A DNA stretch of 64,000 nt from the NCBI GenBank assembly GCA_009602735.1, contig WELA01003517.1, forward strand, positions 356,028 through 420,027, written 5' to 3'. Under the pieces are notes generated by a model. It was given only the letters and a program-made list of their open reading frames with translations. It had not been told where the DNA came from and made no database searches. Both the position numbers and the translations under genes were made by a program. Shown here piece after piece: positions 14,324-59,200 of the stretch (within the stretch, counting starts at the first letter, position 1; each line of letters opens with the position of its first letter). The DNA comes from Mesotaenium endlicherianum (lineage: Eukaryota).

Positions 14324-14324
14324 C

Positions 14325-23250: not shown

Positions 23251-23286
23251 GTGCAAAGAAGACTGTGATAACAGCTCCGATACCAT

Positions 23287-38600: not shown

Positions 38601-40415
38601 AAGAACAACCCCTGCCTTTTTCCAGAAACCCACCGATTGGCGGTGGATGACCATCAACATGAGGGACCAGCAAAATGACAAGGCAAGGGAGGAAGACTTC
38701 CTAACGGACCTATAGGGGAACATAGTGTTGCCTCCTCATATTGCCGCTTGGGACCCAAGACTGGATGGAGTAAGAGACTGCATGAGCCAAGAAATACAGG
38801 AGGACAGCAGCAGGGCCCGTGAGTCATTCTCTAAAGGGAAGCACGCTTATGCCAAATGGGCAAGCAAGCAGGAAGGAAAGGACCTGTATGCAATCCGGAC
38901 TCAACAGCCCCTACCAGCACCCAAAAGGGGATGGTCAGTGGGATTTTTTTTTTCTTGGGAAGAGCTGGAGCAGCTGACAGAAGAGACCCCAGCGGTCTCA
39001 GAGTAACCAGGGGAAGGAGAGGTGGAGGGATCGGAGGAAGAAGAAAGGAAGGCGAGGAAGAGGACACTAGCCCCGCTGTGATCCTGACACCTGCCACATC
39101 CCCTGTAAGGGAGAAGACTGGGTTGGCCTTGCAACAGCTCGCTGAAGAGGAAGATATCACTTGGCTGGGAACTGCCAGAGGATAGAGGCCATCTGCAGGC
39201 ACAGAGACCCAGTCAGACGGGGCAAACAGGAGGGCTGCTAGAGAGATAGCTGGAGGCCTGCCAGCATCTCCCTCGCAGAGAGGGCATGTGCCCTTGGCTC
39301 ATGTCATGCAACATCCTTCTGGGATGCCGGTATATGTACCTGTCAGTTTGAGGTGTGTCCAGAAGAAGATTGCCTCCAATCAATTCCAGACTGTGCAAGA
39401 GGAAATAGTTCAGGAACTGCGTTCTCCGCGGGGCCCCTACGCGGATCCCCCATGCTTCAGGAGACCCCAAGACAGGAGGAGGTCTGGCTCCCCTGATCAT
39501 GGGGCCCAAGGAACATCTCCTTCCTAATGGCAGTAGGCTGAAGGTCAACGAGAGAGCACGCTGTTACTAGTGACCCCACCCGTTAGGTATCAGGGTTGAA
39601 GCAAAAGGTGTTGGGAGGCAGATCAGCACTTTCAGCTAGAGGGACCAGGTACCTAGTGTTAGTGTTGTCGAGGCGACAATTTGTTAAGTTGGAGGGATTG
39701 TAATGAATCAGTATATTGGTAGATATAATATTCGTCTAAATATAGTAGTTAATTAAGTTCAGCCTGCTGAACTTTAGTTAATATTCAGTCTGCTGGACTT
39801 CATAAATTAATCAATTTAATGACTCAGCCGGGAGGAGCAGGCTGAAGTCAACTTAGGTCAGCTTGCTGACACACTCTTTGACAGCCATTTGACTTCCGTA
39901 CTCGGTAGCAGCGAACTGCCTAGATATGCATCTAAGTGTGGTGTGCTAGATGAATGGCCAGATGACATCCCTATGATGGATGGCGATTTGGGATGATGGG
40001 AGATGGCGGATTTGGTTAACCGAGGTCCTACCAACGTGGTTAACTCCCGGGTAGGCAGTGCCATCGCACCGGCCGTTGAAAAGTAAACTCATTCCTTGTA
40101 CATATGCTAGGCATTGCTCTCGAGTTTGGCATTCGGGAACGAGGCCAACTCTCTTGTACAGCTTACTGAGAGAGATCTGAATCCAAGGCGAGAAGCCATT
40201 GATATGCACTATCTCCTAGCCTTGCTTAAGTGTGAGTTTACTGATTGCATTATTGATGCTAGTTTACTACCATTTGACTTACGAGTATTGTCCACTGCTA
40301 GTGTGTTGTCCTTTTGCTGTTTAATCAATCAACAGAACATACCACAAAGATTACTTGCTGATATAAAGATCGTCATTATTTGTTAATCGCCTTTTTAGTA
40401 AGTCGATTCATTTCA
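35640..40415 (+). mobile_element. Family B copy B3 (5'-truncated): RNase H, integrase, chromodomain, extra ORF and 3' LTR 39699-40415
   Basis: Very similar to B1 in reverse orientation; PPT AAGTTGGAGGGAT before TGTAATG; LTR ends CATTTCA. Confidence 0.92.
37861..39527 (+). pseudogene. Family-B extra ORF, best-preserved copy (~555 codons)
   Basis: KRKRR basic motif, E/K/R/Q coiled-coil-like tract, Trp-rich core, acidic linker; terminal TAA shared with B1. Confidence 0.82.
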
Positions 40416-40439
40416 ATAAATGTGCTGTTTGTTGAGAAT

Positions 40440-42755
40440 GAGACGATGCATTTTACTTTCAAGCGCATTTCGTATGCCCTCACTCATGCGCCAGTTCTCA
40501 CATTGCCCAATTCAAACCTGCCTTACAAGGTAGTCGCAAACGCGTCCGGTGTTGGAATAGCAAATGGGCTGCAGGCAGGCCGGCCTATCAATTTCAAGAG
40601 TCGAAAGCTAACACCTCCCAGACAAAACTACTCAAAAACAGCGCAGGAGCTCTAGGTAGTTATGTGTGCTTTGAAAATTTGACGATGTTATTTGGAAGAC
40701 TGCAAGGGTTTGACAGTGGTCACGGAGCACTGCCAAATACCTTCTTCCAAATTCAGCCAACGCTATCAAGACGGCAGACGAGATGGTTTGAGTTCTTACA
40801 ACGATTACACTTTATTTGGGCGTAGTGCCCTAGTTGCAACAATGTTGCCGACCCGCTAAGTCGAATTCCTCCGACTGGATTATTGCTCTTGGGGACTGTT
40901 GCGGGGGTTGTAGAACAAAATGGTAAGGTTTCCAGGGTGGCCACTCTTGCTTCTGCTGTACTCCCCCAGACGACTGCTGTACCAACGCCTGGTGACGCGG
41001 GCACACCCTTCTTGGATAGCATAGGTAACTCTGAGTAACTTGACCTGCATCACTTATTTTGCGAGGGCTATCTCGAGGGTCCGTTTTTTCTAAATTGCTT
41101 GGGTACTTACTGGCTCTAGCGGTGTAGCCGTAACGATGGACAATATGGACAAAAGGAAAGAATGCTCAAACTATACATTTGAGTCGCGATCTTGGTGGCA
41201 AAATGGGCGCATTGTGGTCCCAGAAGGCCAAGTAAGACATGTGCTACAATTGGAAGTGCATGACTCTCCTTACACGGGTCATCAAGGATTTACTAAAACC
41301 ATTCACACGTTGCACCAAGGGTCCACGTGGCCGTCCTTCCAAGTTGATGTTGCCGAGTACATCACGAATTGTGCAACTTGTCAGAAGACTAAGCTGGGCA
41401 ATGCGTTGCCAGCTGGAAAGTTGCGAGCATTGGAACTTGTAGGTGGCCCGTGGGAAAGCATTAGTTTCAACTTTGTCGTGGAATTGCCTACCACCAAAAT
41501 GGGTCACAGTGGGGTGTTAATGATTGTGCATTGTTCCACTGTAAGATGGCGCACTTCGTGCCCACTAAACCATCACTTGATGCAAAAGAGACCGCTCAGC
41601 TCTTCATTGATCATGTGTTCAAGTTACATGGCATGCCAAAGCAGATCATAAGATATCATAGTTACGAGCCACTTTGGGCAGGAAGTGTGCACGTATTTTG
41701 GCACAAAACTTAAGATGTCAACAAGCTTCCATCCTCGGATACATGACCAGACAGAACGTATATTGCGTTCTTCAACAGTTCCTTAGGCATTATGTAAATC
41801 CTCGCCAAGACAATTGGGATACCCTTCACTTAGTTGCAGAGTTCGCCGAAAATAATGCTTATCAGAAAGTATTGAAGAAATTCTTATTTTCCTTAAATAT
41901 GGGAGACATCCGCACACTCCGTTGACATAAGTGGTTTCGGGTCAGATGAAGGAGTCAACCATGAGAGTACCAAATGCGCGCCAATTTGTCCATTTCCTTC
42001 AAGAGGTGCACAAACAGGCAAAGATGGCCTTAGACGCTGCACGAGATCGGCAGAAGAAGTTTGCTGACATGCCCAGGAAAGAGTTAAGTTTTGAGGAAGG
42101 CAATAAAGTCGTTTTGCAAACCAAGAATTTGCAACTCAAGCACCCAGGAAAGTGTAAGCTTTTGCCTTGTTGGATAGGCCCTTCTATCGTTAGTGCAAAG
42201 GTTGCTCATGGTGCATACCGAATGAATTTCTCTAAGTCCATGGGGCGTACGCATTCTGTGCTCCCTCTTAGTTTACTAGATTTTTTTTGATTTAATGGCC
42301 GCTATCAGCCACAAGCACCAAAATTGGAACTCAAAACAAGATGACATAGCCTGGGATGTAGAGGAAGTTAAAGGACATCGCTACACCAGTCATAAGCCTC
42401 CCAGAGTTTAATTTTTGATAAGATAGCTCATCTACGATTTCAGTTGAAATTCTTATGAATTGCCGGATGAAATTCTGCATGATTGTAGTGACATGGTTCA
42501 ACAATACTGGTTACGATGGGCTAAAGCTCAAAAACTCTGTGCTGAGGCAAACAACGTGCTGCCTGGCGCACTTCGTAAGCCAACAAACAAACGCAAAAGA
42601 GTCGCGGCCAAATAATCGATCTTTTCCGTACCTGTTCCGCTGCAATCGTCCGTTCGCCCGAAAGTGTGTTTTACGTTTGGTAAGGCAAGTAAGGACACCG
42701 ACTATTTAAAAGACGTATGCTTAACGAGGACGTTAAGTTCTTTTAAGGGGGAGAG
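40440..42755 (+). pseudogene. Decayed Ty3/Gypsy RNase H-integrase-chromodomain region (family D) ending in a PPT
   Basis: LTHAPVLTLP; HDSPYTGHQG..CATC; DNWDTL; WIGPSIV; WDVEEVKGHR; AAGGGGGAGAG immediately before TGTAACC. Confidence 0.85.
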
Positions 42756-42782
42756 TGTAACCATCTGAGCACTTTAGACGTA

Positions 42783-43792
42783 TGTCATGATTCATTAAGT
42801 CGAGGTTGACGTACGAACCAAAATCTACGTGTGTGAACCATCAACCTAGGAAGACCAACTTTGCATTGACTTTACGCATCCATATGTTGACCTTCTCTAG
42901 ATTTCCGAGTCACCAAAGTGTAGCGCGTCGAAGCATCTACCGAAGGGCACCGATTTTGCGTCATTTGGTTAATTATCGAGCGAGATAGACGCGATTTAGT
43001 CCGCACTCCTTTCGGCACCTAGCGGAATCACACCTAATGGCCAACTTGTGACTCAATGCACCCCAAGGCGAGAATGTTGACCATTCGTGACCCCAAGAAC
43101 CCCTAGCTTTGTGCGCACAAATCCGCGAGCCCTTTAGACTACATAAGTCTTGCATTTCCACAGTGTAAGTGCATCATTGAGGCTATAACTTGGTGACTGC
43201 ATCACCTACTCCTAGAGGAAGCTTCCTCAAGTTTCAGAGTCACTTTTGAGGCGCTATCTAGGTAGAACTACCCAAGGTAAGCTCCACGAATGAGAGACAC
43301 TTAGCATATTTTACGTGCTTTGCTTTGATTGGTTTGAGTTATGCTTAGCCTATAAGAGTGCTAGTACATGCCTTGTACACATTAGTGGAAATAGAAGAGC
43401 CTCCTAGAGTGACTACATGCATTGGATCCGCCGCATACGACGCCGGGTTTTCAGGAGTATAAGTGCTAGAGATGTCCCTAGAGGAACATCTTTTCAGAAG
43501 TCCCATTATGCCAGTTGTAAGTCACAGAGATTATCAGTAAAGCTTACACTTTTATCTCTTGTGTTTTCAGGACCACTTTGTCCCTCTCTTGTGTAGAGCA
43601 AGCCTTTTTGGCTTCCAATCACTAGAAGAACTTCACAAGCGGTGAGCAATGTCACAGCTCATACCCCCTGCCATAGGACTACTCTTGAAGATCATGATGT
43701 GCTTCCAGTGATCTTTTGGGCCAGACTTCATTAGTTGTTTTCCTACCAGATTACAGTCTTGAGGTGCTCACTCTGGAGAGTACACACTCCTT
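42783..43792 (+). repeat. Repeat A1 (1010 bp)
   Basis: Direct repeat of 54848-55856; identity stops abruptly after CTCCTT, with no terminal CA. Confidence 0.95.
43458..43501 (+). promoter_or_regulatory. Predicted core promoter of element C: TATAAG at 43458, initiator CA with +1 at 43488
   Basis: 30-nt TATA-to-Inr spacing, conserved in A2; the predicted +1 coincides with the segment complementary to 43793-43805. Inference. Confidence 0.55.
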
Positions 43793-43805
43793 ACTTCTAA
43801 AAGAT
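43793..43805 (+). promoter_or_regulatory. Putative self-priming primer-binding site ACTTCTAAAAGAT
   Basis: Immediately after A1; complementary to ATCTTT(T)CAGAAGT at 43488-43501 and 55553-55565; no TGG-type tRNA PBS present. Confidence 0.65.
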
Positions 43806-43841
43806 CTCTCTTTGCCTGCACGCAATTAGAATCTTCAGCGT

Positions 43842-46800
43842 ATGCCTACCCGTAGTGGGCGTGCTTACCAACCTTACTACGAAGGGGTTAGTGGAGAAGA
43901 CTCAGACTCCGATCTCAGTACTGTCACTGAACCCTCTGAAGGGGAGCAGATGGCACTCGTGCTTTCTGTGATTGTCCCTGAGCCGTCTTCTCGTCGGGCT
44001 CACCACGATTCCTGGTATCCCATGGCAGGTGACCACGAGGTCAAGACTGTTAGGTCCTCCCTCTTCTGCTTCTGCGGTAGGCCAGGAACTTGTGATCTGG
44101 ACGACACAATCTCAGAGTTCAAGGCTAAGTTCGTGACCGCGAGGCTTAAGACGCCCGCGCTCACTAAGCGTGACGTGTTCTATACGCTCATGCGCTATCT
44201 CCTCTACGAGGCCCGTGACACATTCCGTGAGAAGTGTGACAAGATCTACGCACGCACAAAGCCTGTGGGGGAACCCCCAGTAGAGACCCCCCACGCTGAC
44301 CCGGTCAAGGCCTTCTGGGACGTCCTCAGGAAGGAGTTCGAGGCCGCGACCGAAGAGAAGGTGTACAAGCTGCACCACTTATTCCGCCGCAAGAATGAGA
44401 CGATCTGCATGATGTACCGCCGCTTGACGCACCTTTGCCGAGACGTTGGCACCGTTACTGACCGGGAGGCAGCGGAGATCTTCTTGCGCGCCGTAGAGCC
44501 ACGTTTGAGGGAGCGAGCCATGGCTCCTCTCATCTACCACATCGGCTCCGAGTACTTGCTGGAGGATGCTCACCTCTCAATCATGAAGCAAAGCTTGGCC
44601 GCCGCACGGAGCAACATTAGCGACCGTGTAGGCCTCGCATCCACGGGCGTACGCCAAGAGTCTTTGGTGCTGCCATCCCCGACAATGCGCCCAGTTCCGG
44701 CTCGCCTGCCCCAACAGCAGCAGCAGCCTCAGCGCTCTCAGTTGTCCTAGCAGACCCAGCAGCGCGGGGCTCCGCGTGGCCGCATTTCCATGGCCGCCAC
44801 GACGAGCGACCCCTGTTGGTCTAGCGGGAAGACGGGCAACTCTCGCTAGAACTGCACTATTGCGCAGAATGGCAAGCCCGGTGACTGCACCTACTGTGGC
44901 AAGGGCGGCCACCTGCAGATAGTATGCCTGCAGAAGAAGCGCGACGCCGAGAACAGACGCGCACGTGACGGCCCTGCGCCAGCAGCAGGACTTCGGGGCA
45001 TGCGTAGCCCTCGCACGGGCGGACGTCCCTCGATGGCTGCAACCTCGGCTACGATGGACGCCGCGCTGACCCCCGGAGCCGATTACTACAGTCTTGACGA
45101 CGTCAGCAACGCCCTCGTAGAGGCCAACGCAGAGATTGCCAGACTCCGCGGCCTCGTCGCTACCGACAGTTACGACGCGTGCGGAGCCCTCTTTGCACGC
45201 GTCCTGCAGTCCGACGCTTTAGCTCCGACAGCTGGCGTCTGCGCAGCTCCTGCGCACTTTCATGACGCCTACACGTGGCAACCCCAGAGGCTGGCACCTG
45301 GCGCTATAGCAGCGCTGCAGCCTCGCACGCGCCCGCCCCACGAGAGAGCTACGGCGACCAGCGCCGCAGGCGTCTGTGCAGACGCTTCTGCCAGACCTGC
45401 GCACTCTGCACTAGTGTCCGTCAGCAGCTGCTGCACTCGTTCGGTCGGGCTGCCAGATTGCAGGCTGCAGGCACACGCGGTCCCGCTACCCTGTGTCACA
45501 GACGCTGCAGCTCCCAACGCGCCCCTTGACGGTTCGGCACACACGTCAGCACAGCCGCAGGCTTCAGCAGCCCCGCTGGCCTGTGCCGCCCTGCTGGCGC
45601 CAGCAGTGCCTTCGGCAGCCTACGCAGCGACAGCTGTCGCGACGGGGCGCGCTTGCCAACTGAGTACCACGACTACAGCACACAAGGCTGCAGCGCCCCC
45701 CGCTCTACGTGTCGCCATCCCAGGTGCAGACCTACACATCAGCCGGCAACGTTAGGAGGGTCTCACCCTGTTGGCTGCTGCAAGCAGCAGGGTCCAGCAG
45801 GCGCCGACCCTTGCCACGTGTCCGGCAGGCCAGGTCGCTCTTGCCGGCAGCCACGCGCACACTCGCGCTCTCACGCGTCTGCTCACACCCCGCGCGGCAA
45901 CGCGAGGCTTGCCGGGCAGCCAGCTACAAGATCACAGCTCGGCCGCCATAGCAGCAGCTGCGCACGCCAGCGGCGCACACGTCCTTCCACGTGGCGCGCG
46001 CACGCAATCTGGCACGGCCAACGCAGATTCGGCGGCCGCGATCGCCATTCCCAGTCAGGAGGGGGCATCCCTAATTACGCTGTGCGGCTGGATTGCCGTG
46101 CGAAGCGCCGACGGCACGCTCACGGTTGCGCAAAGCCAGGGCTTAAACCCTGGCTGCGCCCAAAACCCCCGCGCCGACGCAATTCGCGCTACGGGGGCCT
46201 CGGCGTACGCCCGCGCCAGAGGGAGGGTGTCCCGAGCAGCGTCCGAGGCAGCCAACGTAGACCTTGAAGCCAGACCAACCACGCGCCCCTGCAATCCCAG
46301 GAGCAATTGGGAGGCGCCACATGGCAGCCTCCCAACGACCGCCCCTTCGCCAATCCCAGCAGCCGCGCCAACAACCGTCGCACCTGACGCGTGCGCGACT
46401 GGCGAGACTTTGCCTGACGGCAGCTGCACATCTGCACATCTCTGCACATGCTCGCACACGCCGCGCACAGCACTGCAACGCTCGCTCAGCAGCCCGCCAC
46501 GCGACCACCTCACGGCAGCCACGTCAGCCGCTGCGTACAGCACCTGCGCACACGTGCCGCCATTTGGCACGCGCACGCATTCCGGCCCAGCCAGCGCAGA
46601 TTTGGCGGCCGCGACTGCCATCCCGAGCCAGGGGGCGACCTCCTTGATCGCGCTGCGCGGCCGTGTCTCCGTTTGGAACTGCGACGGCGCGCACACGGTT
46701 GCGCAAAGCCAGGGCTTAAACCCTGGCTACGCACAAAACCCTTGGGCCTTCGCGATAAGCGTGGCGAGGCTCCCGGCGAGCACGCGCGCTACCTGGAGGG

Positions 46801-46976
46801 CGCCACGTACCTTGCTTGGGGCAGCCGATACCGACACCGAAACCGGTCGGGCGACGCAACTTTGCAGGCCCAGGGGCGTCCTTGAAGCGCCACTTGTGAG
46901 GCTGCCAACAACCAAGCCTGCGCCAGCCCTGGCGTTTGCGCTAGCGACCAAAGCATTGCGCCCAAAGCAGCACTGA
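43842..46976 (+). pseudogene. Gag-like region of element C with CCHC knuckle(s) and a long Ala/Pro-rich linker (one frame, three TAG stops)
   Basis: ORFs 43842, 45000 and 45771 share a frame; CTYCGKGGHLQIVC at ~44886-44930, preceded by a degenerate knuckle. Confidence 0.8.
45840..46950 (+). repeat. Diverged ~573-bp tandem duplication inside element C
   Basis: CACGGTTGCGCAAAGCCAGGGCTTAAACCCTGGCT at 46121 and 46694; flanking translations align (IPSQ.GA.SLI.L.G...TVAQSQGLNPG.AQNP). Confidence 0.8.
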
Positions 46977-47759
46977 CATTCGCAGCCGCTCCACCGGAGG
47001 CACCAGCGTTTGCCGAGGCGCCAGCTGCAGGAGGACCCGAGCCAGCGCATTTCACGACGCCAGTACCAGGTGGGCCAGTGCCACCTGGCGGCCTTCCGGT
47101 CGCCGAGGCAGCGCCAGCATCGACAGCTGAGCCAGCAAGCCTGGCACCTGCGCCAGCAACTGCGCAAGCATGCCCAGGAGCGCCAGCGCCGAGCGCGCCA
47201 GCGCCAGGTGCACCAGCGCCAGGTGCGTCCAAGCTGGGAGCACCAGCGCCAGGTACCCGAGCGCCACGTGTGCCAGCCGCTCGTCTGCCTGCTGAACCAG
47301 CGGCTGCGCCTGCTGTTGCCGCCGCGTGCAGCCCCATTCTGGCCTGCTGCGCACGCACAGTGCCACTCGGAGGCCGCACAACAGACGGCAGCGCACGACG
47401 CAAGCCCGCTTTGGTGGCAGNGATCAGGGGCGTCGCACGGAGGAGGCGCCGCGTCTGCCCCGCTTGTTCCGCGTGCTGGACACGCCAGCAGCGCCAGCGG
47501 CCTTTGCGCCTCACGCGATGGCCTCGCCGATGACCACGGTGCAGCTCAGCGCCGAGGTCATCTCGCTGGCGCTTGACCGCATGCCAGCAGTCTCCTTCGC
47601 AGAGCTTGGCGTGTCGATGGAAGCCATACGGCAGGCAACCCAGCTACTGCTCCAGTCGCGCAGGGCCAGCCAGCGCGCCTCTGACGGCAGGCCAACGTCA
47701 GACGCGGCAGCCGCGGTGCTCTCCGCGCCCGCGCGACCTGCGCATGAGCGCAGGATGAT

Positions 47760-48180
47760 CAGCACGCCTAACGCTGCGTTTTTGGATAATTCGCAGGGCA
47801 TCGTGCTAGTAAACACGCAGGTCCCGCGGCGCATCATGTTCGACACTGGCGCCCAGCCAGTCCTCATCAACCTGCACTAACTCCGCCAACCGGGCCTCTC
47901 GTCAGCCGACCTAGAGGATTCGCCTACGCGGATCAACACCGCTGCTGGCACGTCCAAGACCGTCACCGGGCGCACGTGGCTGGCCCTTCGCTTCACCTTT
48001 CGGCCCGGCACTCCGGATGAGACGACCATCCACCGGCATGCGTTGGTCACTCGCTCCGAGACCTTCGACGTGCTCCTTGGCCAGGACGTGCTCTTTCCTA
48101 TCGGCGCCGCAGTGGATTACTGGGTGGAGCGGGTCTTTTATCGTCCCGACTGGCAGTCAGGGGGGACCCGCACTGCATCT
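47760..48180 (+). pseudogene. Aspartic protease domain of element C
   Basis: RRIMFDTGAQPVLI (DTG) ... FDVLLGQDVLF; one in-frame stop. Confidence 0.85.
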
Positions 48181-50216
48181 GTGCCACTTGACATCTTGGA
48201 TTGTCGCGCGGCAGAGTCCCCCCTCTACGGCTTCATGGCGCTGGACGATGGTTGGTCTGTGGTTTAGACCAATAAGGGGGGAGCCGAGGATGACGAGGTC
48301 TCCGTCGGCGCCGACTTACTGGAGACGCAGGAGGAGGATCCCGAGCTGTCTGGTGCCGAGCTCCACCTCACGCCCCAGGAGCAGGCTGACGCTCTAGCCG
48401 CACAAGCCAGGGAGACAGTGCGGATCTACGCCGCGCATAACGCCATGGTGCATCAGATGGCGGCAGACGCCGTAGAGGCACACGCCGTTGCCACGGCTGC
48501 TCTTACTGCTGCAGCTCACGCTCATGACGCAGCCACAGCCGCAGCAGCCATACCTCAACCACAGCCTCCTGCGACGAGCAAACCCTCCTCAAGATCACAC
48601 GTCCGCGTACGGCATGACGTGCCTGTGGGGGTCGCCATCCAGTATCGCATGGCCTCCCAGTCGCCCTCACCCTCACTGTCGCACAGGACAGGCGACTCAT
48701 GGCCACGCACTACTACGTCTGAGGACGAGGCCATGAGGCAGGCAGCGTTCCCAGGCAGGTCCGACGACGCGTCATTGAGCAGCGAGGAGGAGGAGTGGCA
48801 GGAGTGGTCCCAGGAGGCCGCAGAGGAGCCCGCAACCCAGCCATCGGCAGAGCCACCGCCGCCCACGCCTACAGCTCGCGTCCGACGCCAGCCTACAGGG
48901 CCTCCCGACTTCAGTTCTCTCTCACAAGAGACCACGGCCAATCCCCGTCGAGCCCATCCATGCGTCGGCGGGTCTAGTCGTCCGATACAGCACGACTGTT
49001 GGACCAGCAACGAGTGCCGTGACGTCACGCACTTGTTCGCTGGCAACAGCCTGAGCACAGGCTGGCCAGGTCGCGCCTCCGCCAGCACTGCCTCCACGGT
49101 TCCTTTCTCCGCTATCGACCCGCGTGCCGAATGTGCGCACCAGACAGTGGCCAGGATCAGCATCCTCGGTCCTTGGCGTACAGGTCCTTCCCCCTACGCC
49201 GGGCCAGCTCTACGCTTCGCACGCCGCACTCTGCCCCTAGATCGGCGTGCACGCGAGGTCACTTCGATCCGCGAGCATACCAGGGCTGCCCGTGAGGAAC
49301 GCCTCTGCGCGACACTCCCAGGGATGCACGAGAGGTCACTCCTCTTCGCGAGGGGAGAGAGGTCACTCCTTTGCGCGAGACGCGCCCGCGCTCAGTCACA
49401 CCGCAGTATGACGGTCCGCGCGATCTCCGCACCCGCGAGCATGACGCACAGTCTTCCTCCACCACTGCAGCTCACGCATTATACCAGACGCCGCCTGGCT
49501 GGCCTGCCGACGTCCCGCGCAGTCACATAGCCGGCTACGGGCCGTCTGGGTCACCTCCTCATAAGGTGGCCCGCACCGCTGCGCGCCTCCGCGACCGTCA
49601 TCCTCATCCGCACGCAACACGCGCAGGGCCCATGTAGCGCAGCCAGCGGGAGCGCGTCCGACTCCCATCTCTTTCGCCGCTACGCCCGCGAGTCCAACTC
49701 GCCCCACGTCAGCTCGTCCGTCCTCGACAGGCAGCACATTGGGACGAGCGCTCCGTTTGCACAGTGCCCCTTCAGGCGGATCTTCGCGAGCGTCAGCGTT
49801 CGTACTTTGATCAGCATTCCTAGCTGCCCCAGCGCACCGCCACAGAGCAGCTAACCCACGCCACTTCACACCACGCAGACTACAGGACGAGGGACCGGTG
49901 GCAGCAGCAGCGCGTGCGCGACGCGCAGGCTCTGGCCCGCCCAGTGCCCGAGGAGGCCTTGCAGGACGCGCGTGCGCGCTGGCGCACTTATCAAGCACAT
50001 TCTTGCACGGCTCGCCCGCAGCCGCTGCTCGAGCGCATTCCTCGACTTACTCGCCACTACGCAGAGCTCGCAGTGGCGGCCCTCCGCATGGCGCCCCATC
50101 AGCACAGTCTGCTGCGCTCCTATCCACCGCCAGCGCAAGCCGGCGATCCCGCCCTGGGTTGTCGCCCCCTTCCTACGCCTATCTACATCGCACAGCTCAA
50201 CGAGCGTCCCGGCGGC

Positions 50217-51160
50217 ATTGTCCTTGTCGAGCTCTTCGCCGACATTGCGACAGGGTTGTTGGCCACCCTACAGGCTGGCATCCCCGTACGTCGGTACGTC
50301 TACGTGGACCCCGATGGCGAGGCGCAGCAGGTCGCCCGCAGGCAGATGGCCTTATGCCACGAGCGTTTCCCAATCCTCTTCCCTGAGCATGCCTTCTACC
50401 GCGCCCAGATTGACTGGCCCATGGACATCCGCGACATTACCGCCAAGCACATCACGCGCCTCGGGCCCATCGACCTCATCATTGCTGGTTGGAAGTTCCA
50501 GGGCTTCTCCATTGCGGGACGGGGCAACGGGCTCGGTGACCCGCGTACGACCTTGTTCTGGCACCTGCTCCGCGTCCTCAACATGGTTGAGGACCGCCAA
50601 TCGCCGCACACGCTCGCCTGGGTGTCGGAGAACGTGGCTGTCCGCCACGATTCTCGGCCCAACGTCAGCGCCGACTTTTCCCTCTACAGCACCTACGTCG
50701 GTCGTGAGGCCGTCATTGACGCAGCTCAGATTAGTTCCTTCGCGCATTGTGTGCGCGCCTACTTCACCCACGTGGCCATGCTAGGCACGCTTGAGGCATT
50801 AGCGGCCGCACATCCACGCAACACGCGCAACGTTGACTCCATCCTCGACGTGGCGCGCCTGGCCCAGCGCGTGGTTGCCCTTCCGCATCCTTCTCAGGCC
50901 CAGTGTGAGGTCCTCCGCGACGTCATGCGGGCGCTTCCTACGTTCGTGAGTCGCTACGACAGCGCGGCCTACGTCGGCGACCAGCGCGGCATGATCATTG
51001 ACCTCGAGACTGGCATGTTCTAACGACCCCGTGCCGTGGAGATGGAGTGTGCGATGGGATTCCCTCCGCACCTCACACAGGTGGACGGCATCACCGAGGT
51101 CAACCGCGTGCGTCTCCTTGGCCAGGCTATCGATGCCAACGTCTTGACGTGGATTCTCCT
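50217..51160 (+). pseudogene. C5 cytosine DNA methyltransferase domain within the Pol of element C (this copy disabled)
   Basis: Ordered motifs I VELFADIATG, II YVD, III DIRDI, IV DLIIAGWKFQGFSIAG (catalytic Cys position reads Phe), V GLGDPR..LF, VI ENV, VIII AHCVRAYF, IX EMECAMGFP, X LLGQAID; same frame as the downstream RT. Confidence 0.9.
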
Positions 51161-51699
51161 GCAGACACAGGCCCTGACTCCCCTTTACGCCCAGGCTCGT
51201 CATCCTGAGATGGACCAGTTCTATGACGCCATGGATCGAGATTCCGACGGCAACGGCCGCGCCCCGCCTGGTACGACCTGGCATTCCTAGCGCGAGGGTC
51301 CAGCTTCCCAGCAGCCGCTTGCACCTTGTCCTGGTCCTTGTTCTGGTTTGCTGGGGGGGGACAGGAGGAGACAGGAGTCCCCACAGCGACCCAGGGAGTT
51401 TTGTTCCCCTTTTCTTTTTCCACGCTCTCCGCCGCCTACAGGTGGTGCAGGGCAGATGGCAGCAGCTGCCGAGGAGAGGGCACCCGAGGCAGGCCGAGTG
51501 CAGCCAGTTGCAGGACAGGTGACGCCTGCAGACCCACAGATCACGCCAGCAGCAAGGCAAGAGGCGCCAGCCGCAGCGCAGGAGCCACCACCAGCTGTCC
51601 CTACTTGGAAGCTGGGGGGGACTCTCACTAGGGCACGGGCTGCTCAGCTAACGGCATTGCTGGATGCACGGCGCAACGCCAGCTTTGCCAGCGGCATGC

Positions 51700-54600
51700 A
51701 CGATCTTGGGCGCTACACAGGCGACCCTATGAGGATCCCCCTCCAGACAGACGTGCCCATCTTCCAGAAGCGCTATCGTTACAACCGCTTTGAGGACGAC
51801 CTGATCAGCACGTAGACAGGCAAGCTAGAGGAGTGTCAGCTCATTCGTGAGTCTGCCTCCACCTACGCTGCGCTCACAGTCATGCCAGCTAAGAAGGACG
51901 CCTCAGGCAACTGGTCTTAGAAGAGGATGTGCGGTGACTATCGTAAGCTTAACAAGGTCACTAAGCAGGACAGACACCCTATGCCGACCCCTGACGAGAT
52001 CTTCGACGACATCGGCGCTTGTACTTGGTTCTCGGTGCTGAATTTGAGGCAGGGCTTCAACCAGATACCCATTGCGGAGGAGGACCAGCATAAGACGGCT
52101 TTTTGGAGATCGCAGCGTCTGTACGAGTGGAGGGTTATGCCCTTCGGCTTGAAGAACGCTCCTGCCACCTTCCAGCAAGTCATGGATAAGGAGCTGGCAG
52201 GGCTCTCCTTTGCCCGGTGCTACATCGATGACGTGCTCGTCTCCAGTGAGACGTTTGAGGAGCACGTGGCGCATATCACTACAGTTCTGGACCGCTTGGA
52301 GGTCGTTGGGCTCAAGTGTCATCCAGGCAAGTGCACCTTTGGGACCCGGGAGGTGGAGTACCTCGGGCATCTTTTGTCTTCGAGTGGTTTGGCTCCTCAG
52401 CTGGCCAAGATCTTGACCATCACAGGCATCCCGCCGCCGACCGACCTCTCGCAGCTGAGGGCCTTCCTTGGCATCGCCAACTACTATCGCCGCTTTGTGC
52501 CTGGGTTCAGCGAGCTGGCCAAGCGGCTCAACGACTTGCTACGCAAGGGCGTTGCCTACGAATGGGGACCAGAGCAGCAGGCAGCGTTTGACAAGCTCAT
52601 GGAGCTGTTGGTGTGCGCCCCAGTACTACGGCGGCTTGACTATCAGAAGCCCTTCATCCTCCACACCGACTGGTCGCAGGCAGGGCTTGGAGCAGTGCTG
52701 GTGCAGGAGCATGACAGCTTCGAGCATGTGGTGGCGTACGCCAGCCGTAGCAACAACCGTGCCGAGGGCAACTACGGCTCCTATGAGTCGGAGTCCTGGT
52801 AGTAGTATGGGCAATTGTGCATTTCAGGCACTATCTCTACGGCACCCACTTCCGCTTGGTCACCGACCATCAGCCACTCAAGTGGCTCATGACGTCGGAG
52901 CGCCTGACGGGCAAGTACGCACGGTGGGCGCTCATCTTGCAGGAGTACACCTTTGACGTGCATCATCGTCCAGGGTCCACGAACTTGGACGCTGACTGCC
53001 TCAACCGCAACTCGCTGCCCTCTTCGCGAGACCTCATGGTAGCCCGCCACGATGAGGATGAGCCAGTGGCCTGGCACGCAGCGGCATTCTTGGCCTTCAC
53101 TGTTGACGACGACGTGCGGCCCACAGGGCTCACTAGCCTAGACATGGTGACTGTCACCACTCGACGACTCGCCTTGGCAGCAGCTAAGGAGCGGGACAGC
53201 TGGCAGCGCGGGCCCGAGGACGTGTGGGACAACACCCCGGTGCTGCAGTACGTCACGGCCAAGGAGTTGGTCCCAGGCATTAGTGCGCGCGAGCGTGACC
53301 GCGTCATGAATCGTAGCCGGGACTTTGTCTTCATGGAGGGGCGCATGCGGCGAGTGATGGTGGACGGCTCTGTCCTGGTGGTCCCTGAGCCCGCTATACG
53401 CAGCCAGCTGGTGCGACGTGTGCACGAGACGCTTGGACACTTCGGTTTTAAGCGCACTCTCAGCCTCCTCCAAGCTCAGTACTGGTGGCACGGCATGACT
53501 AAGGTTGTCGCCGACGTCGTCAGCAGCTGCACACATTGCGACCGGGTGCGCTCAAGCTTCACAGCCCGCACCGTCGCTCTCAGCCCTCTCCCTATTCAAG
53601 GGCTGTTCTACAGATGGTCGCTCGACTTGGCTGGGGAGCTGCCCAAGTCTCGCCGAGGCAACCTCTATGTCTTGGTGATGATCGAGCACATGTCCAAATG
53701 GGTCGAGCTTGTGCCGCTGCCCAGCAAGGCCAGTGAGGGGATTGCTCAGGCTTTCCTCGAAAAAGCCCTTAGCCGCTTTGGCGGCTGCGCTGAGGTCCTC
53801 ACTGACCAAGGCAAAGAGTTCCAGGGCAGCTTTCAAGAGCTGCTAGAGCGCTCGATGATCGACCACCGCACCACCTCCCGCGACCATCCCCAGGCTGACG
53901 GCCTCGCAGAGCGCATGGTGCAGACCGTCAAGCTTGGGCTGCGGAAGTACTGCCTGGCCCACGACAGCACCCATTGGGACGACGCCCTCCCATGGTTGGC
54001 TATGGGGTACAAGTTCAGTAAGCAGGCCTCCTTGGCCTCACATTCTCCCTACGTCCTTCTCTACGGCCGACAGCCAGTCCTGCCCGCAGCAGCCAGGATC
54101 GTGGCCGAAAACGTTTTGGACCTGGACAGTCCCGAGACGTGGAGCGCTCTTATCGGGCAGCGTGCACAGCTCTTTCAGCGCCTGATGCCCATGGCCATGG
54201 ACAACCTCAGCATTGCTCAGCACCGCGACACACTGAGGTATGCCATGACTCGTGGAGGAGCCTATCGGCCGCGAGTGTTGCAGTTCTCCGCAGGTGACTT
54301 CGTGTACCTGCGACGCCAGACAAAGAACACCCTCGACACCAGCAGCTCGCCCGTCGTCCTACGCGTCAGGCGTGTCTTGGCGTCAGGAGTTCTGGAGCTG
54401 GAAGGCGCAGATGGCCGTCTTCACAAGGACCACACAAAGAATTGTGGACCATGCCACCTTCCTAACCTTGACATGCAGATTCGTCCCTGCGACGCAAGGC
54501 CGCCCAAGGACTGGGCGTGCCAGATTTGCCACAGCCCCGGCCAGGAGGCCAGCATGCTGCTATGCAACAGCTGCAACCTCGGCTTCCACATCGGTTGCCT

Positions 54601-54700
54601 TGACCCGCCGCTGGCCCGCATGCCAGCTGGCGACTGGTTTTGTAGCGACTGCACTGCTTTAGCTCTAGACAGCGATCACAGCCCATCAGCTTGTGGCTGA
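51700..54700 (+). pseudogene. RT-RNase H-integrase-PHD region of element C
   Basis: MCGDYRKLN, MPFGLKNAPATFQ, YIDDVLV; TDWS, TDHQPL; HETLGH..CTHC, SLDLAG, LTDQG, AERMV; a few stops and one frameshift near 52800. Confidence 0.95.
54518..54652 (+). other. PHD finger (C4HC3) fused to the integrase C-terminus
   Basis: CQIC...MLLCNSCNLGFHIGCLDPPLARMPAGDWFCSDC. Confidence 0.93.
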
Positions 54701-54712
54701 GAGCTGGGGGGG

Positions 54713-54845
54713 GAATTAAAACATTTGACGCGTGACGTTTGGCTATAAAGCCACACCTATTATAGACTTCATTGCAGCAAAGCTTGCTTGCATGTTATGC
54801 ATTGCTTGTGTCATTAATACGCACCCGACCTCCTACCGCACGACA
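54713..54845 (+). repeat. Repeat B1 (133 bp), directly after a G-tract (54706-54713, PPT-like)
   Basis: Direct repeat of 55857-55993; ends CACGACA. Confidence 0.95.
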
Positions 54846-54847
54846 GC

Positions 54848-55856
54848 TGTCATGATTTATTAAGTCGAGGTTGACGTACAAACCAAGCTCTACGTGTGTG
54901 AACCATCAACCTAGGAAGACCAACTTTGCATTGACTTTACGCATCCATATGCTGACCTTCTCTAGATTTCCGAGTCACCAAAGTGTAGCGCGTCAAGGCA
55001 TCTTCCGAATGGTACCGGTTTCGCGTCATTTGGTTAATTATCGAGCGAGATAGACGCGATCTAGTTCGTACTCCTTTCGGCACCTAGCGGAATCACACCA
55101 AATGGCCAACTTGTGACTCAATGCACCCAAAGGTGACAATGTTGACTATTCGTGACCCCAAGGACCCCTAGCTTTGTGCGCACAAATCCGCGAGCCCTTT
55201 AGACTACATAAGTCTTGCATTTCCATAGCATAAGTGCATCATTGAGGCTATAACTTGGTGACTGCATCACCTACTCCTAGAGGAAGCTTCCTCAAGTTTC
55301 AGATTCACTTTTGAGGCGCTATCTAGGTAGAACTACCCAAGGTAAGCTCCACCAATGAGAGACACTTAGCATATTCTACGTGCTTTGCTTTGATTGGTTT
55401 GAGTTATGCTTAGCCTATAGGAGTGCTAGTACATGCCTTGTACACATTAGTGGACATAGGAGAGCCTCCTAGAGTGACTACATGCATTGGATCCGCCGCA
55501 TACAACGCCGGGTTTTCAGGAGTATAAGTGCTAGAGATGTCCCTAGAGGAACATCTTTCAGAAGTCCCATTATGCCAGTTGTAAGTCACAGAGATTATCA
55601 GTAAAGCTTACACTTTTATCTCTTGTGTTTTCAGGACCACTTTGTCCCTCTCTTGTGTAGAGCAAGCCTTTCTGGCTTCCAATCACTAGAAGAACTTCAC
55701 AAGCGGTGAGCAAAGTCACAGCTCATACCCCCTGCCATAGGACTACTCTTGAAAATCATGATGTGCTTCTAGTGATCTTTTGGGCCAGACTTCATTAGTT
55801 GTTTTCCTACCAGATTACAGTCTTGAGGTGCTCACTCTGGAGAGTACTCACTCCTT
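54848..55856 (+). repeat. Repeat A2 (1009 bp)
   Basis: Direct repeat of A1; separated from B1 only by GC. Confidence 0.95.
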
Positions 55857-55993
55857 GAATTAAAACATTTGACGCGTGACTATCGTTTGGCTATAAAGCC
55901 ACATCTATTATAGACTTCATTGCAGCAAAGCCTGCTTGCATGTTATGCATTGCTTGTGTCATTGATACGCACCCGACCTCCTATTGCACGACA
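55857..55993 (+). repeat. Repeat B2 (137 bp), right end of element C
   Basis: Direct repeat of B1 with a 4-nt indel; abuts A2 with no spacer; followed by TSD CGTA. Confidence 0.95.
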
Positions 55994-56213
55994 CGTATTT
56001 AGGACGTTTTGCTAATTACCTCAAATACATTATACTTTTTGTTTAAAAAAGATTGCATATTTGTTGTTTAATTAACACATACGTGTGCCAACTACTTTTG
56101 GGTTGATTAGCACAATGACCACACTGCTATTGCAAAATCAAATCGTATAATTATTTCAATTACTTCGCAAAAGTGTAACTTAATCATGTCGCAATTGCTA
56201 TCCGGTTGACGGT

Positions 56214-59200
56214 TCTAATGAATCATTATGTTGCATAGATATAATATTCATTTAAATATTATTGCTGAATAACTTCAGCCTGCTAAACTTCAGTCTGCTG
56301 GATATTTGATACTTAATTATATGACTCAGCAAAGAGCAGCAGGCTGAAGTCAATTAGGTCAGCCTGTTGACTTGGGTCAGCTTGCTGACACATTCTTTCA
56401 CAGTGAGCTGGCTGTCGTACTCGGCAGCAAGGAACTGCCTAGCTATGCATCTAAGTGTGGTGTGCTAGATGAGTGGCCAGATGACACCCTTAAGGTGGAT
56501 GGCGATTCGGAATGATGGGAGATGGATATGCATTTTGTTAGCTAAGGTCCTACCAACATGATTAACTCCCGGGTAGGCAATGCCATTGCACTTGCCGTTG
56601 AACACTAAACTCATTCCATGTGTATATGCTAGGTATTGCTCTCGAGTTTGGCATTCGGAAACGAGGCCAACTCTCTTGTAGTGCTTAGTGAGAGATACCT
56701 AAATCCAAGGCGAGAAGCCATTGATACGCACTGTCTTCTAGCCTTGCTTATACACGAGTTTACTGATTGCATTATTGAAGCTAGTTTACTTGCATTTGAC
56801 TAGCGAGTATTGTTCAATGGTAGTGAGTTGTCTTTTGCTGTTTAATCAATTAACAGAAAATACCACAAAGATTACTCGTTGATATAAAGATCTTTATAGA
56901 TTGTTAATTGCCTATTGGTAATTCGATTCATTTCAGTGGTATCGGAGCAGTTTTCGCAATAGTTGTGTATGGTAAGGACTAGGTCTCAAGCTAGCAACTC
57001 TCGGGAAATGGAGGGTGAGGACAATGATAACATTATAGGAGGGCAGGACCACAGTCGCGTCTTTGGGCCCCGTACCTACTTAGAAACGTTGCAGGATGCA
57101 GGAGCAAGAGAAGCAACTGAGCAGGCAACAGCTCAGCCCAACTGGCGGAGGATGAGCGTTTAGCCAAAGAGGTAGAGGAGGCAAGAAACAAGAGGGCCTT
57201 GGTTGAAAGGACGGTGGAAGAGCAGATGGCAGAGAGGGCCAATCTCGGAAACCAACCTCCTGCTGCGTCTACTATCATACCTCTCCCTCAAATTTGCAGC
57301 AAATTGAGCGCAACGGGTATAGTCGGAGCGGCAGCAATTGGGAATGCCGAAGCTGCTACTAATCGAGCTAAAGTTGCTGCTGCTGCGTTTGCTGGGCTGC
57401 CACCTCAAAATGTAGATCTGGGAGCTTCATTTGTGCAGCTGCAATTGCAAGTGGCGAGCTTGTATCAGTCTGAACAGGACGACAAAAGGATCATGATGGC
57501 ACTGCTGGCGGTGGTGGCAGAGGGCCTAGTAAGCCTAAGCCAAAATCTCCCCAGGACTATGACCCTGAGGGAAACAAAAAGTATTACCTCATCAAGTTTC
57601 TCGCTAACGTTGAGCAGTGGCTAGAGAACTACCCACAACTGCAGAATTACAATAAGGTCAAGCACACTGGTACTCTACTAAAAGGCAGTGCAGCAGACTG
57701 GTGGCTGTATTGGAAAGGAGAGCGTAAGGCTCAACAACTTCGTGACCCTACTTGGGTAGAGTTTGTCGAGAAGCTGCATGAGAAGTTTGATGTCATCAAT
57801 CAGCAGGAGAAAGCTATCTATGCAATGATCTCCTTGACACTGAAGTAGACCACTTCAGTTGCTGAGTTTGCTCAAAAGTTCCAGGAGAACATGATGAAGC
57901 AGCCAACTTGCCAGAGCGAAATAGGATAGCATACTTCTTGAAATCCGAAGACTCAAGTCATTTTGCTGAAAAGAAGTATGAGAAACTGGCTGACTTCATC
58001 CAAGATGCTGATGCCTGGGATCAGCAACAATTCAATCACAAGCGTCAGAGCATTGCTTTGGTGTCTAAGATTGTCAAAAAGTCACACAATTCCTACAATG
58101 CAATTGAAGGAGATCAGGGTGAGGGCGATCAGGGTGATGAGTATGAGTACGAGTATAATGCTATGCAATCTAGAGGGGGAGGTGGATACTCTTGGGGTGG
58201 CTATGGAAGAGGTGGTGGTAGGACTAAGCCAAGACCAGCCTCAGCAAAATTTATTTGCTACCATTGCCAACAGTTGGGTCACTACAGAGAGCAGTGTCCG
58301 TCAACCACCTTCCAAAGGTTGAGAGAAAGGTCCAGCCTTTAAAAGACAGCAACAGTTAGTAATCCAGTCTACTGATTGTGAGGATGCTAGAGATAGTGAG
58401 TCGTCATTAGCTGCCCTTGTAGCAGGTATTATGGGCCCGGCTGAACTGGATTCACTATGCATGCCTGACAACCAGATAAAGGAGACCATCAGCAATATAG
58501 ATCTCCAGAGAGTGCACACTCTGGATGATCTTGTTCCACCTGATGTCCAACATTTCTTTGCTAAGTCAAGAGAATAATGCAAAAGTCAGGAAAAGTCAGT
58601 TCCCCCTATTCTATTGCATTGTATGTATGCAGGTAGGAAGTTGAGGGCATTTGTTGACGGAGGGGCGTCACACACTTTATATCCATAAGGACTTAGTTAA
58701 GCGGCTAAGGCTGCCTTTTGTCACCCAAGGGAATAGAAAAATATTCCTTGGAGATGCCATAAGTATCCCGGGAGGAGTTATAACCAAGCCTATTGAGGTC
58801 CAGTTAGGTTCTGGCATTGCAGTTCTAACTGAAACGCTTACGTTTGAGGTACTCAACATTGGCTTTTATGATCTCGTGCTAGGCAGGTCTTGGCTTAACA
58901 AACATCAAGCTGAAGTGTGTTGGAGCAGAGGTACAGTTAAAGTGAGAGGAGCCAATGATGGGCAGACTAACTCGGTACCCACCAGTTATCTTCCTCTCGT
59001 CTTGTATGGATGGCAAATGAAGGAAAAGGAGAGGCTTCCAGGAGGATGCAAATTGCTGAACGCAATGGAGTTCATTGAAAGCTAGAACCAGAAGGAAGAT
59101 AGAATGTTCAGTCTGCTGCTAAAAGAGGTACCTTCTCAACCTGAAGAGTTGGTTGAGAAAAAGGTGAGCCCTCCGGAGCTACCTCTTGCTGCAAAAATTG

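What the first reader, a model, noticed from the sequence alone, without database searches (positions are those of the whole stretch)
50217..51160. Complete C5-DNA-methyltransferase domain embedded between protease and RT
Seen: MTase motifs in canonical order and in frame with RT. Here the catalytic Cys codon reads TTC (50496-50498), motif I has G>D, motif VIII has R>C and there is a stop, so this copy is dead. Established: DNMT-carrying retrotransposons were reported in dinoflagellates and charophytes (de Mendoza et al. 2018, as I recall), so the domain alone is not new. Inference: it could pre-methylate the cDNA or circle. Whether DNMT-Gypsy elements generally have split repeats seems unexamined.
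Basis: partly seen in the sequence, partly recalled or inferred. Interest (0 to 1): 0.7.

Follow-up and report, generated by a model that had tools for sequence, protein, structure and literature searches.

The report
Methyltransferase retrotransposon with permuted end repeats
This is a dead copy of a known kind of green-plant-lineage jumping gene that carries its own DNA-methylase domain, whose key residues are intact in relatives; its split end repeats suggest that it likely primes its own copying and likely inserts by cutting a DNA circle open at an internal site.

Summary
Observation confirmed. 50217-51160 is a DNMT3-like C5-methyltransferase domain (PF00145; best solved match DNMT3A) in the RT frame of a 13.2-kb Ty3/Gypsy element (42783-55993). 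This copy is dead, but other copies in DNA runs of a species holding this family encode the catalytic Cys, and Cys is kept in 143 of 143 aligned distant relatives. The kind is known: KnitGypsy-Dnmt3 (de Mendoza 2018), whose Fig. 4c legend already notes DIRS-like split repeats, so that point was not unexamined. New here: named relatives in liverworts and peat moss; a second Pol order (DNMT after RNase H); and an anatomy that points to a mechanism. The polypurine tract precedes repeat B, a Tf1-like self-priming site follows A1, the internal B|A junction is a conserved CA-GC-TG palindrome, and the ends carry 4-bp target duplications. So reverse transcription likely yields BA-internal-BA, which is end-joined and then opened by the DDE integrase at an internal att junction, giving A-internal-B-A-B. 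This is inferred, not shown. What the DNMT does is open: activity is untested here, the Klebsormidium domain gave no methylation in yeast, and this element is not CpG-depleted.

The parts
42779..42782 (+). left 4-bp target-site duplication (CGTA); the element sits about 26 nt into the LTR of an older, ordinary Gypsy element
42783..43792 (+). repeat A1 (1010 nt, starts TGTC); 96.3% identical to A2
43458..43463 (+). TATA-like box, 30 nt upstream of the predicted RNA 5' end
   Evidence: sequence; function inferred
43488..43501 (+). predicted first 14 nt of the RNA = self-primer, complementary to the stretch right after A1
   Evidence: start not mapped
43793..43805 (+). predicted primer-binding site (not tRNA-type), directly after A1
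43842..44930 (+). gag-like region with CCHC knuckle; broken by stops
   Evidence: Retrotrans_gag E 0.013, below cut-off
47800..48250 (+). aspartic-protease-like region (DTG at 47842-47850), with stops
   Evidence: sequence; Asp_protease in relatives
50217..51160 (+). DNMT3-like C5-cytosine methyltransferase domain, inactivated in this copy (motifs I, IV, VIII changed; stop at 51021)
51717..52980 (+). reverse transcriptase and RNase H (stops and one frameshift)
53390..54490 (+). DDE integrase (H2C2 + rve), D-X34-E spacing typical of this clade
54518..54652 (+). PHD finger at the integrase C-terminus
   Evidence: E 3e-10
54699..54713 (+). polypurine tract ending in G8, directly before B1
54714..54845 (+). 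repeat B1 (ends GCACGACA)
54838..54855 (+). internal B|A junction: CA, two bases (GC), TG inside the palindrome GACAGCTGTC; predicted integrase att site
54848..55856 (+). repeat A2
55857..55857 (+). one extra G at the A2|B2 join, absent from most other copies; predicted leftover of the polypurine tract
55858..55993 (+). repeat B2 (ends GACA); 93.4% identical to B1
55994..55997 (+). right 4-bp target-site duplication (CGTA)

Best explanation
This is a dead copy of a Ty3/Gypsy retrotransposon whose polyprotein carries a DNMT3-like methyltransferase with its catalytic residues kept in the family, and which likely primes reverse transcription with its own RNA and likely integrates from an end-joined (circular) cDNA that the integrase would open at an internal CA-GC-TG junction. 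Steps: (1) shown: domain, dead copy, A-internal-B-A-B ends, 4-bp duplication, conserved junction. (2) Inferred: RNA starts about 705 nt into A1; its first ~14 nt pair with the stretch after A1 and prime the minus strand, which fixes the right cDNA end at the end of A. (3) Inferred: the polypurine tract primes the plus strand, which fixes the left end at the start of B, so the cDNA is BA-internal-BA with no att site at its tips. (4) Inferred: the tips are joined (A2|B2 join, sometimes keeping a tract base), and the integrase cuts the junction inside the upstream BA unit, drops two bases and inserts with a 4-bp duplication. (5) Inferred, weakest: the DNMT, made as part of Pol and packaged with RT, methylates the new cDNA or the fresh insertion.
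For: DNMT: other copies read Cys at the catalytic codon in over 99% of summed contig depth in X1 and X2 (one sample) and in the contigs laid from X5 and X7, and Arg in motif VIII in 85-88%. Of the 40 sites shown of 51 in that table, 30 reach 30% in X1 or X2; 11 of 12 changes private or nearly private to this copy alter the protein against 2 of 18 sites shared among copies (hand count; Fisher p 1.5e-5). Among the best 150 of 275 clusters at E<=1e-30: Cys 143 of 143 aligned rows, motif I Gly 127 of 127, motif VI Glu 145 of 147, motif VIII Arg 142 of 147 and 144 of 146. Ends: of 11 distinct related elements whose 3' end is in view among loci L001-L048, 4 show complete A...BAB, 2 show BAB without A1 in the locus, 2 show A...B only, 3 are damaged or cut; none shows an ordinary LTR pair or ABA...B. 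4-bp duplications: exact in 5 of 7 elements with both ends (window included), one mismatch in 2. The 18-nt junction is identical between the window and L004 although their DNMTs are 36% identical, and the distant L048 contig ends in its first 12 bases, 114 nt after a G-tract. Self-priming complement with unrelated sequence in three families: reached by 0 of 30 and 0 of 30 control 24-mers in the window, 0 of 60 twice in L020, 1 and 0 of 60 in L035. The extra base at the A2|B2 join is missing in about 84% of contig depth and in 5 of 7 and 16 of 17 RNA reads. Precedent: foamy-virus integrase cleaves the palindromic LTR-LTR junction of 2-LTR circles (PMC1180852, abstract); Tf1-type self-priming.
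Against: No circle, cDNA end or transcription start was observed. Self-priming test weak in L038 (3 and 17 of 60 controls) and negative at A1 of L003 (45 of 60), where the site is deleted; repeat borders were set by eye, and in L020 the site lies in a hairpin that raises the score. The model does not explain why only one of two identical junctions is opened. A...B copies (L014, L017) fit opening of a one-unit circle but equally B1-B2 recombination. For the DNMT: no activity data; Klebsormidium domain gave no methylation in yeast; residue before Cys is Glu in this family and in 75 of 142 relatives instead of the usual Pro; no CpG depletion; only 5 of 25 A1/A2 transitions fall at CpG. The 150 relatives were picked by a profile that mostly has Cys, which favours its conservation. 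The bog loci come from few related metagenomes and are not independent lineages.
Confidence: 0.6

Rival explanations
1. PAT/Ngaro-like replication: the RNA runs to the end of B2, the internal B1-A2 copy templates the circle junction as proposed for tyrosine-recombinase elements, and the integrase has simply replaced the recombinase.
For: Same A-B-A-B order as tyrosine-recombinase elements (PMC5890265 Fig. 1e and 4c legends; PMC7192593 passages). RNA reads do cross the A2|B2 join. Also needs a circle opened at B|A, so it shares step 4.
Against: A polypurine tract sits exactly before B1 and a self-complementary priming site exactly after A1, which is what ordinary LTR-type priming needs and this model does not. 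A variable extra base at A2|B2 looks like an end-join, not a templated copy.
Confidence: 0.17
2. No covalent circle: RT jumps from one tip of the linear cDNA to the other and copies B a third time, and the integrase trims to the internal att sites on a linear molecule.
For: A2|B2 joins are nearly exact in L003, L004, L020, more than host end-joining might give. End-to-end template jumping by some RTs is recalled, not from a call.
Against: A jump extends one strand only; the other strand's 5' end cannot be extended by a polymerase, so a join is still needed (reasoning).
Confidence: 0.13
3. For the DNMT alone: it is kept for something other than methylating the element's own CpGs (DNA or SAM-dependent binding, guarding one junction, methylating the target site or non-CG sites).
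For: No CpG depletion; no activity of the Klebsormidium domain in yeast; Pro before Cys often replaced.
Against: Cys, ENV Glu, RxR and the SAM-binding Gly are near invariant, which a binding-only role would not need; SymbioDIRS-Dnmt3 methylates CG yet its elements are also not CpG-depleted.
Confidence: 0.3
4. The split ends are an artefact of nested insertion, recombination or assembly of an ordinary LTR element.
For: The window is a nest of repeats; only one complete copy lies in it and no whole genome was held.
Against: Same order, junction and 4-bp duplication in 4 complete elements from other assemblies, a second, older element in this window with the same junction, and the published Klebsormidium structure.
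Confidence: 0.02

Closest known systems
KnitGypsy-Dnmt3 of Klebsormidium nitens (de Mendoza et al. 2018, PMC5890265; read: parts 1-4 of 7 of the text, passages, supplement search; figure itself not seen); called streptophyte Gypsy-DNMT3 in bioRxiv 10.64898/2026.05.21.726589 (part 1 of 5 and passages)
   Same: Dnmt3-like, non-permuted DNMT inside Pol of a Gypsy element; DIRS-like repeat order; conserved catalytic residues; purifying selection. K. nitens integrases are among the nearest named ones (52-54% identity).
   Different: Named relatives here are from Marchantia polymorpha, Calypogeia fissa and Sphagnum fallax. The text read gives no priming site, tract position, junction, target duplication or mechanism, no PHD (0 occurrences), and no second domain order.
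Tyrosine-recombinase retrotransposons with split direct repeats (PAT-like, Ngaro, SymbioDIRS-Dnmt3)
   Same: A-ORFs-B-A-B; an internal copy of the joined ends; circle proposed; some carry a methyltransferase.
   Different: Here a DDE integrase with PHD, no recombinase hit in the 15 frames scanned, TG...CA ends, 4-bp target duplication, polypurine tract.
Tf1/sushi and Tcn1 self-priming chromoviruses (PMC6317226 and bioRxiv 10.1101/2022.12.06.519325, passages)
   Same: Primer-binding site right after the 5' repeat is complementary to the predicted RNA 5' end.
   Different: PHD instead of chromodomain; DNMT; ends permuted so the att sites lie inside the RT-defined repeat.
Integrase cleavage of 2-LTR circle junctions in foamy virus (PMC1180852, abstract); abutted-end circle junctions of IS3, IS21 and IS30 DDE transposases (recalled, no call)
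   Same: A DDE enzyme acts on two att ends joined head to head with a short spacer.
   Different: In retroviruses the junction is made from the cDNA tips and is a side path; here it is carried inside the repeat, separate from the tips, and would be the obligatory path.

Membership tests
C5-cytosine DNA methyltransferases (PF00145) | profile match with motifs I-X in order | tested here: met
C5-cytosine DNA methyltransferases (PF00145) | catalytic Cys, ENV Glu, RxR, SAM-binding Gly in this copy | tested here: not met
   Cys, Gly and first Arg changed, stop at 51021; Glu kept
C5-cytosine DNA methyltransferases (PF00145) | the same residues in the family | tested here: met
   Cys and Arg in sister copies (motif I lay outside that stretch); all four in relatives
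C5-cytosine DNA methyltransferases (PF00145) | methyl transfer to DNA | not testable with these tools
   needs an assay; Klebsormidium domain inconclusive in yeast
Streptophyte Gypsy-DNMT3 (KnitGypsy-Dnmt3 kind) | Dnmt3-like, non-permuted DNMT in the Pol frame | tested here: met
   DNMT3A/B/C rank first, far above DRM and bacterial enzymes
Streptophyte Gypsy-DNMT3 (KnitGypsy-Dnmt3 kind) | Gypsy domain set RT-RNase H-DDE integrase | tested here: met
Streptophyte Gypsy-DNMT3 (KnitGypsy-Dnmt3 kind) | DIRS-like A-B-A-B repeats | tested here: met
Streptophyte Gypsy-DNMT3 (KnitGypsy-Dnmt3 kind) | purifying selection on the DNMT | tested here: met
   16 of 18 shared variable sites silent over 361 bases; rough, 40 of 51 rows seen
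Streptophyte Gypsy-DNMT3 (KnitGypsy-Dnmt3 kind) | DNMT groups with the K. nitens element DNMTs in a tree | tested here: inconclusive
   no named K. nitens DNMT was retrieved; the integrase falls in a 26-row group with K. nitens, Closterium and bryophyte rows, SH-aLRT 95, quick tree only
Tyrosine-recombinase (DIRS order) retrotransposons | tyrosine recombinase instead of DDE integrase | tested here: not met
   rve and H2C2 present, no recombinase family in 15 plus-strand frames; minus-strand frames not scanned
Tyrosine-recombinase (DIRS order) retrotransposons | split direct repeats | tested here: met
Canonical Ty3/Gypsy LTR elements | two full TG...CA LTRs at the ends | tested here: not met
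   5' end has A only; B lies before A2
Canonical Ty3/Gypsy LTR elements | 4-5 bp target duplication and polypurine tract before the 3' repeat | tested here: met
Tf1/sushi self-priming group | primer-binding site complementary to the RNA 5' end | tested here: inconclusive
   complement present in 3 of 5 elements tested; RNA start not mapped (one search found no place where many reads begin)
Tf1/sushi self-priming group | chromodomain at the integrase end | tested here: not met
   PHD finger instead

The most novel reading that the evidence does not exclude
A large green-lineage clade of Ty3/Gypsy elements (hundreds of clusters, two Pol orders, D-X34-E integrase, PHD, Dnmt3) has uncoupled its integration ends from its reverse-transcription ends: it must circularise its cDNA and integrates by cutting an inherited head-to-head att junction, the first retroelement with a DDE integrase for which the circle is the obligatory precursor. 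In the boldest form the built-in DNMT marks the CpG kept at the B end and so decides which of the two identical junctions is opened.
Probability: 0.5. Interest if true: 0.82.

Novelty: new member of a known kind. Interest (0 to 1): 0.62.

Why it matters
The domain itself is known, so the finding as written is a range extension: DNMT3-carrying Gypsy elements occur in land plants (liverworts, peat moss) and form a much larger family than the one alga described. The larger point is the ends. Whether circular cDNA can be a true integration precursor is an old retrovirology question; here a whole clade has the signature of depending on it, with a short conserved junction that can be tested directly by PCR on extrachromosomal DNA and by an integrase assay, in a clade that includes the model plant Marchantia. 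It also explains why tools that look for two equal LTRs would miss these elements. The 0.5 in the section on the most novel reading is for the obligatory-circle reading; the DNMT-chooses-the-junction add-on alone is about 0.1.

Tried and rejected
No whole genome was held, so copy numbers and a genome-wide count of end types were not possible. AlphaFold on a 3-row alignment gave mean pLDDT 32: unusable, no fold search run. ESM Atlas gave only phage-rich PF00145 clusters: confirms the family, says nothing on origin. Viral contigs: no relative of the DNMT, no junction match, only weak matches to the methylase part in 80 loci; none used. The careful integrase tree did not finish; the quick tree is cited as such. 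Folding 43488-43830 pairs the first 14 nt with the priming site in both minimum-energy and centroid structures, but overall z is -0.85 and I chose the start: not counted as evidence. Two further exact GACAGCTGTC matches in the window (3660, 45629) have no tract-B-A context and were rejected as junctions. No RNA holder was listed for the DNMT; two RNA runs laid (6% and 13% read) gave 219 and 318 reads, mostly on the 3' part and many only partly fitting, next to none on the DNMT: no conclusion on expression. The host was not identified. Paper searches for the mechanism or for this clade in land plants found nothing beyond the 2018 paper and the 2026 preprint; the library lacks most subscription journals and Repbase reports, the 2018 figure was not visible, and the preprint's supplements were not seen, so prior description is not excluded.

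Full report
1. Observation. The frame 49824-52805 carries a C5-methyltransferase domain at 50217-51160 and continues, through stops, into reverse transcriptase. Pfam PF00145 matches at E 1e-7, 32.1 bits, cut-off 22. The best solved relatives are DNMT3A, 3C and 3B (E 5e-9 for the single sequence; 8e-22 for a 15-row profile, against 1e-6 or weaker for DRM and bacterial enzymes). The protease-like DTG lies 2.3 kb upstream in another frame in this copy and has no Pfam hit of its own.

2. Is the family's enzyme intact? By sequence, yes. Laying contigs of four DNA runs on 50440-50800, the catalytic codon reads Cys in over 99% of summed depth in X1 and X2 (one sample) and in the few contigs from X5 and X7; motif VIII reads Arg in 88% and 85%. 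Of the 40 sites shown (51 in all), 30 reach 30% in X1 or X2: 12 are private or nearly private to this copy and 11 of them change the protein; 18 vary among copies and 16 are silent (hand count; p 1.5e-5). So the family is under selection and this copy decays. A profile search found 275 clusters at E<=1e-30; in the best 150, Cys is present in 143 of 143 aligned rows, the motif I Gly in 127 of 127, the ENV Glu in 145 of 147, the two Arg in 142 of 147 and 144 of 146; the residue before Cys is Glu in 75 and Pro in 55 of 142. Those rows were chosen by likeness to a Cys-bearing profile, which favours the result. Activity was not tested.

3. The element. It spans 42783-55993: A1 (1010 nt), gag, protease, DNMT, RT, RNase H, DDE integrase, PHD finger, polypurine tract, B1 (132 nt), GC, A2, B2. 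A1/A2 are 96.3% and B1/B2 93.4% alike. It starts TGTC, ends GACA, and is flanked by CGTA on both sides, inside the LTR of an older Gypsy. The B1|A2 junction is the element's right end and left end put head to head with two bases between, forming the palindrome GACAGCTGTC.

4. Relatives. Named DNMT-bearing relatives: Marchantia polymorpha (5 proteins), Calypogeia fissa, Sphagnum fallax. Named integrase relatives: Klebsormidium nitens, Calypogeia, Marchantia, Closterium, Chromochloris, Haematococcus. A quick tree puts the window's integrase in a group with K. nitens, Closterium and bryophyte rows (SH-aLRT 95) and three ordinary Gypsy integrases of the window far outside (35 rows, careful search unfinished). 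The host of the window was not identified; it is green-lineage by affinity only. 47 metagenome loci and one genome-collection locus gave DNA. After removing duplicates, 11 elements have the 3' end in view: complete A...BAB in L003, L020, L035, L038; BAB without A1 in the locus in L004, L016; A...B only in L014, L017; damaged or cut in L027, L032, L048. None has an ordinary LTR pair, and none has ABA...B. The other loci are duplicates or end too early. Four-base duplications are exact in the window, L020, L035, L038, L014 and have one mismatch in L003, L017 (in L014 and L038 one terminal base has decayed, and L045, apparently the same insertion as L035, differs by one base on the left). The 18-nt junction is identical in L004, has 2 mismatches in L003 and L020, 4 in L038 and 6 in L035, although the repeats around it share no detectable likeness with the window's (probes gave no hit in the window). 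L048, which has the other Pol order, ends in G-tract, 114 nt, then the first 12 bases of the junction.

5. Priming signals. A G-rich tract abuts B1 in the window and in L003, L004, L014, L017, L020, L035, L038. No tRNA-type site follows A1; instead the next 13 bases pair with 43488-43501 inside A, 30 nt downstream of a TATA-like box. The same holds with unrelated sequence in L020 and L035. Control 24-mers from the element interior reached the score in 0 of 30 and 0 of 30 trials (window A1, A2), 0 and 0 of 60 (L020), 1 and 0 of 60 (L035), 3 and 17 of 60 (L038), 45 and 0 of 60 (L003, where the site is deleted and the A2 hit lies elsewhere). This is the arrangement of Tf1-type self-priming (passages).

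6. Mechanism (inferred). By standard LTR reverse transcription (established knowledge), the primer-binding site fixes the right end of the cDNA and the tract fixes the left end. Here that gives BA-internal-BA, whose tips are not att sites; the att pair lies inside each BA unit. The genomic form A-internal-B-A-B is exactly a circular permutation of that molecule joined tip to tip and opened at the upstream junction, with loss of the two spacer bases and a 4-bp duplication, as a DDE integrase would leave. The A2|B2 join would be the scar of the tip joining; it carries one extra G in this copy, absent from about 84% of contig depth and 5 of 7 and 16 of 17 RNA reads, as a leftover tract base would. 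Foamy-virus integrase cuts the palindromic junction of 2-LTR circles (PMC1180852, abstract); bacterial IS3, IS21 and IS30 use abutted-end circles (recalled). Unexplained: why the downstream junction is never seen opened alone. Confidence: identity of the element about 0.95; self-priming 0.8; end-joined precursor opened at the junction 0.6; DNMT methylates the element's own DNA 0.5.

7. Role of the DNMT. Being in Pol, it would travel with RT and integrase and meet the cDNA first; de Mendoza et al. propose cDNA methylation and show CG activity for SymbioDIRS-Dnmt3 but none for the Klebsormidium domain, which they call inconclusive. Against heavy heritable CG marking: CpG o/e is 1.08 in the DNMT, 0.76-0.89 in gag, RT and integrase, against 0.32, 0.40, 0.58 and 0.76 in four other Gypsy regions, and 5 of 25 A1/A2 transitions are at CpG. 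SymbioDIRS-Dnmt3 is also not depleted, so this does not settle it.

8. What is known. PMC5890265 describes KnitGypsy-Dnmt3 and states in the Fig. 4c legend that the repeats are arranged as in DIRS with Gypsy domains. The 2026 preprint refers to streptophyte Gypsy-DNMT3 without detail in the passages seen. The element meets four of five features of that kind; the tree test with K. nitens DNMTs could not be made. It is not a tyrosine-recombinase element. I found no paper on the priming, the junction, the duplication, the land-plant members or the second Pol order, within a library that lacks most subscription journals and repeat databases. Two earlier notes of this scan on a moss genome reach a similar reading; they are AI notes, not independent evidence, and were seen after my note.

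9. Verdict. Real, correctly read, dead copy; new member of a known but little-studied kind. Interest 0.62, carried by the testable circle-integration reading, the size of the clade and its presence in model bryophytes, not by the domain alone.

Noticed in passing
window 25867-27285: A second, older member of the same clade: integrase end and PHD (51% and 48% identity), a B-like stretch, the junction ATGACAGCTGTCATGA at about 26730-26745 and a GCACGACA end at about 27285; no DNMT left.
   Followed up: partly
L048 (P0017) and 150 representatives: A second Pol order, RT-RNase H-DNMT-integrase-PHD, is the commoner one among distant relatives. In a FastTree of 146 DNMT domains the 15 rows placed before RT or after the protease fall in one 40-row clade (support 0.99) with none of the 80 after-RNase H rows, so the domain likely moved once. 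Hosts of most rows are unnamed.
   Followed up: partly
L048, 1-10362: This contig is filed in a bacterial metagenome-assembled genome but is a eukaryotic-type Gypsy element with PHD and Tudor domains: likely contamination of that bin.
   Followed up: partly
integrase, window 53390-54490 and relatives: The second Asp and the Glu are 34 residues apart in 90 of 91 parsed rows of 120 integrase relatives and 49 of 50 parsed rows of 149 DNMT-bearing representatives, against 35 in an ordinary Gypsy of this window: a clade marker that may bear on end recognition.
   Followed up: partly
L014 3596-13482 and L017 2265-12055: Two elements have only A...B with a 4-bp duplication; both also carry a related 700-nt insert (75% alike) before the tract, in opposite orientations.
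   Followed up: partly
L020 1835-1857, L004, L027: In this moss family the predicted self-primer is one arm of a hairpin whose other arm repeats the primer-binding site; the hairpin is deleted in both A copies of L003.
   Followed up: no
window 45884-46227 and 46455-46800: A 345-nt internal duplication (73%) in the long GC-rich stretch between gag and protease.
   Followed up: no
window 1-3300: GC-rich, apparently spliced host gene on the minus strand; no useful Pfam hit in the frames tried.
   Followed up: no
window 9400-23900, 31500-42750, 56300-64000: Several decayed ordinary Gypsy elements of other lineages, strongly CpG-depleted (o/e 0.32-0.58 in three of four regions), nested with one another.
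   Followed up: no
window 53474-53514: Dozens of RNA reads in X12 and X15 match only a 40-nt piece of the integrase region and run on into other sequence on both sides: a short piece of this element may sit in a host transcript.
   Followed up: no
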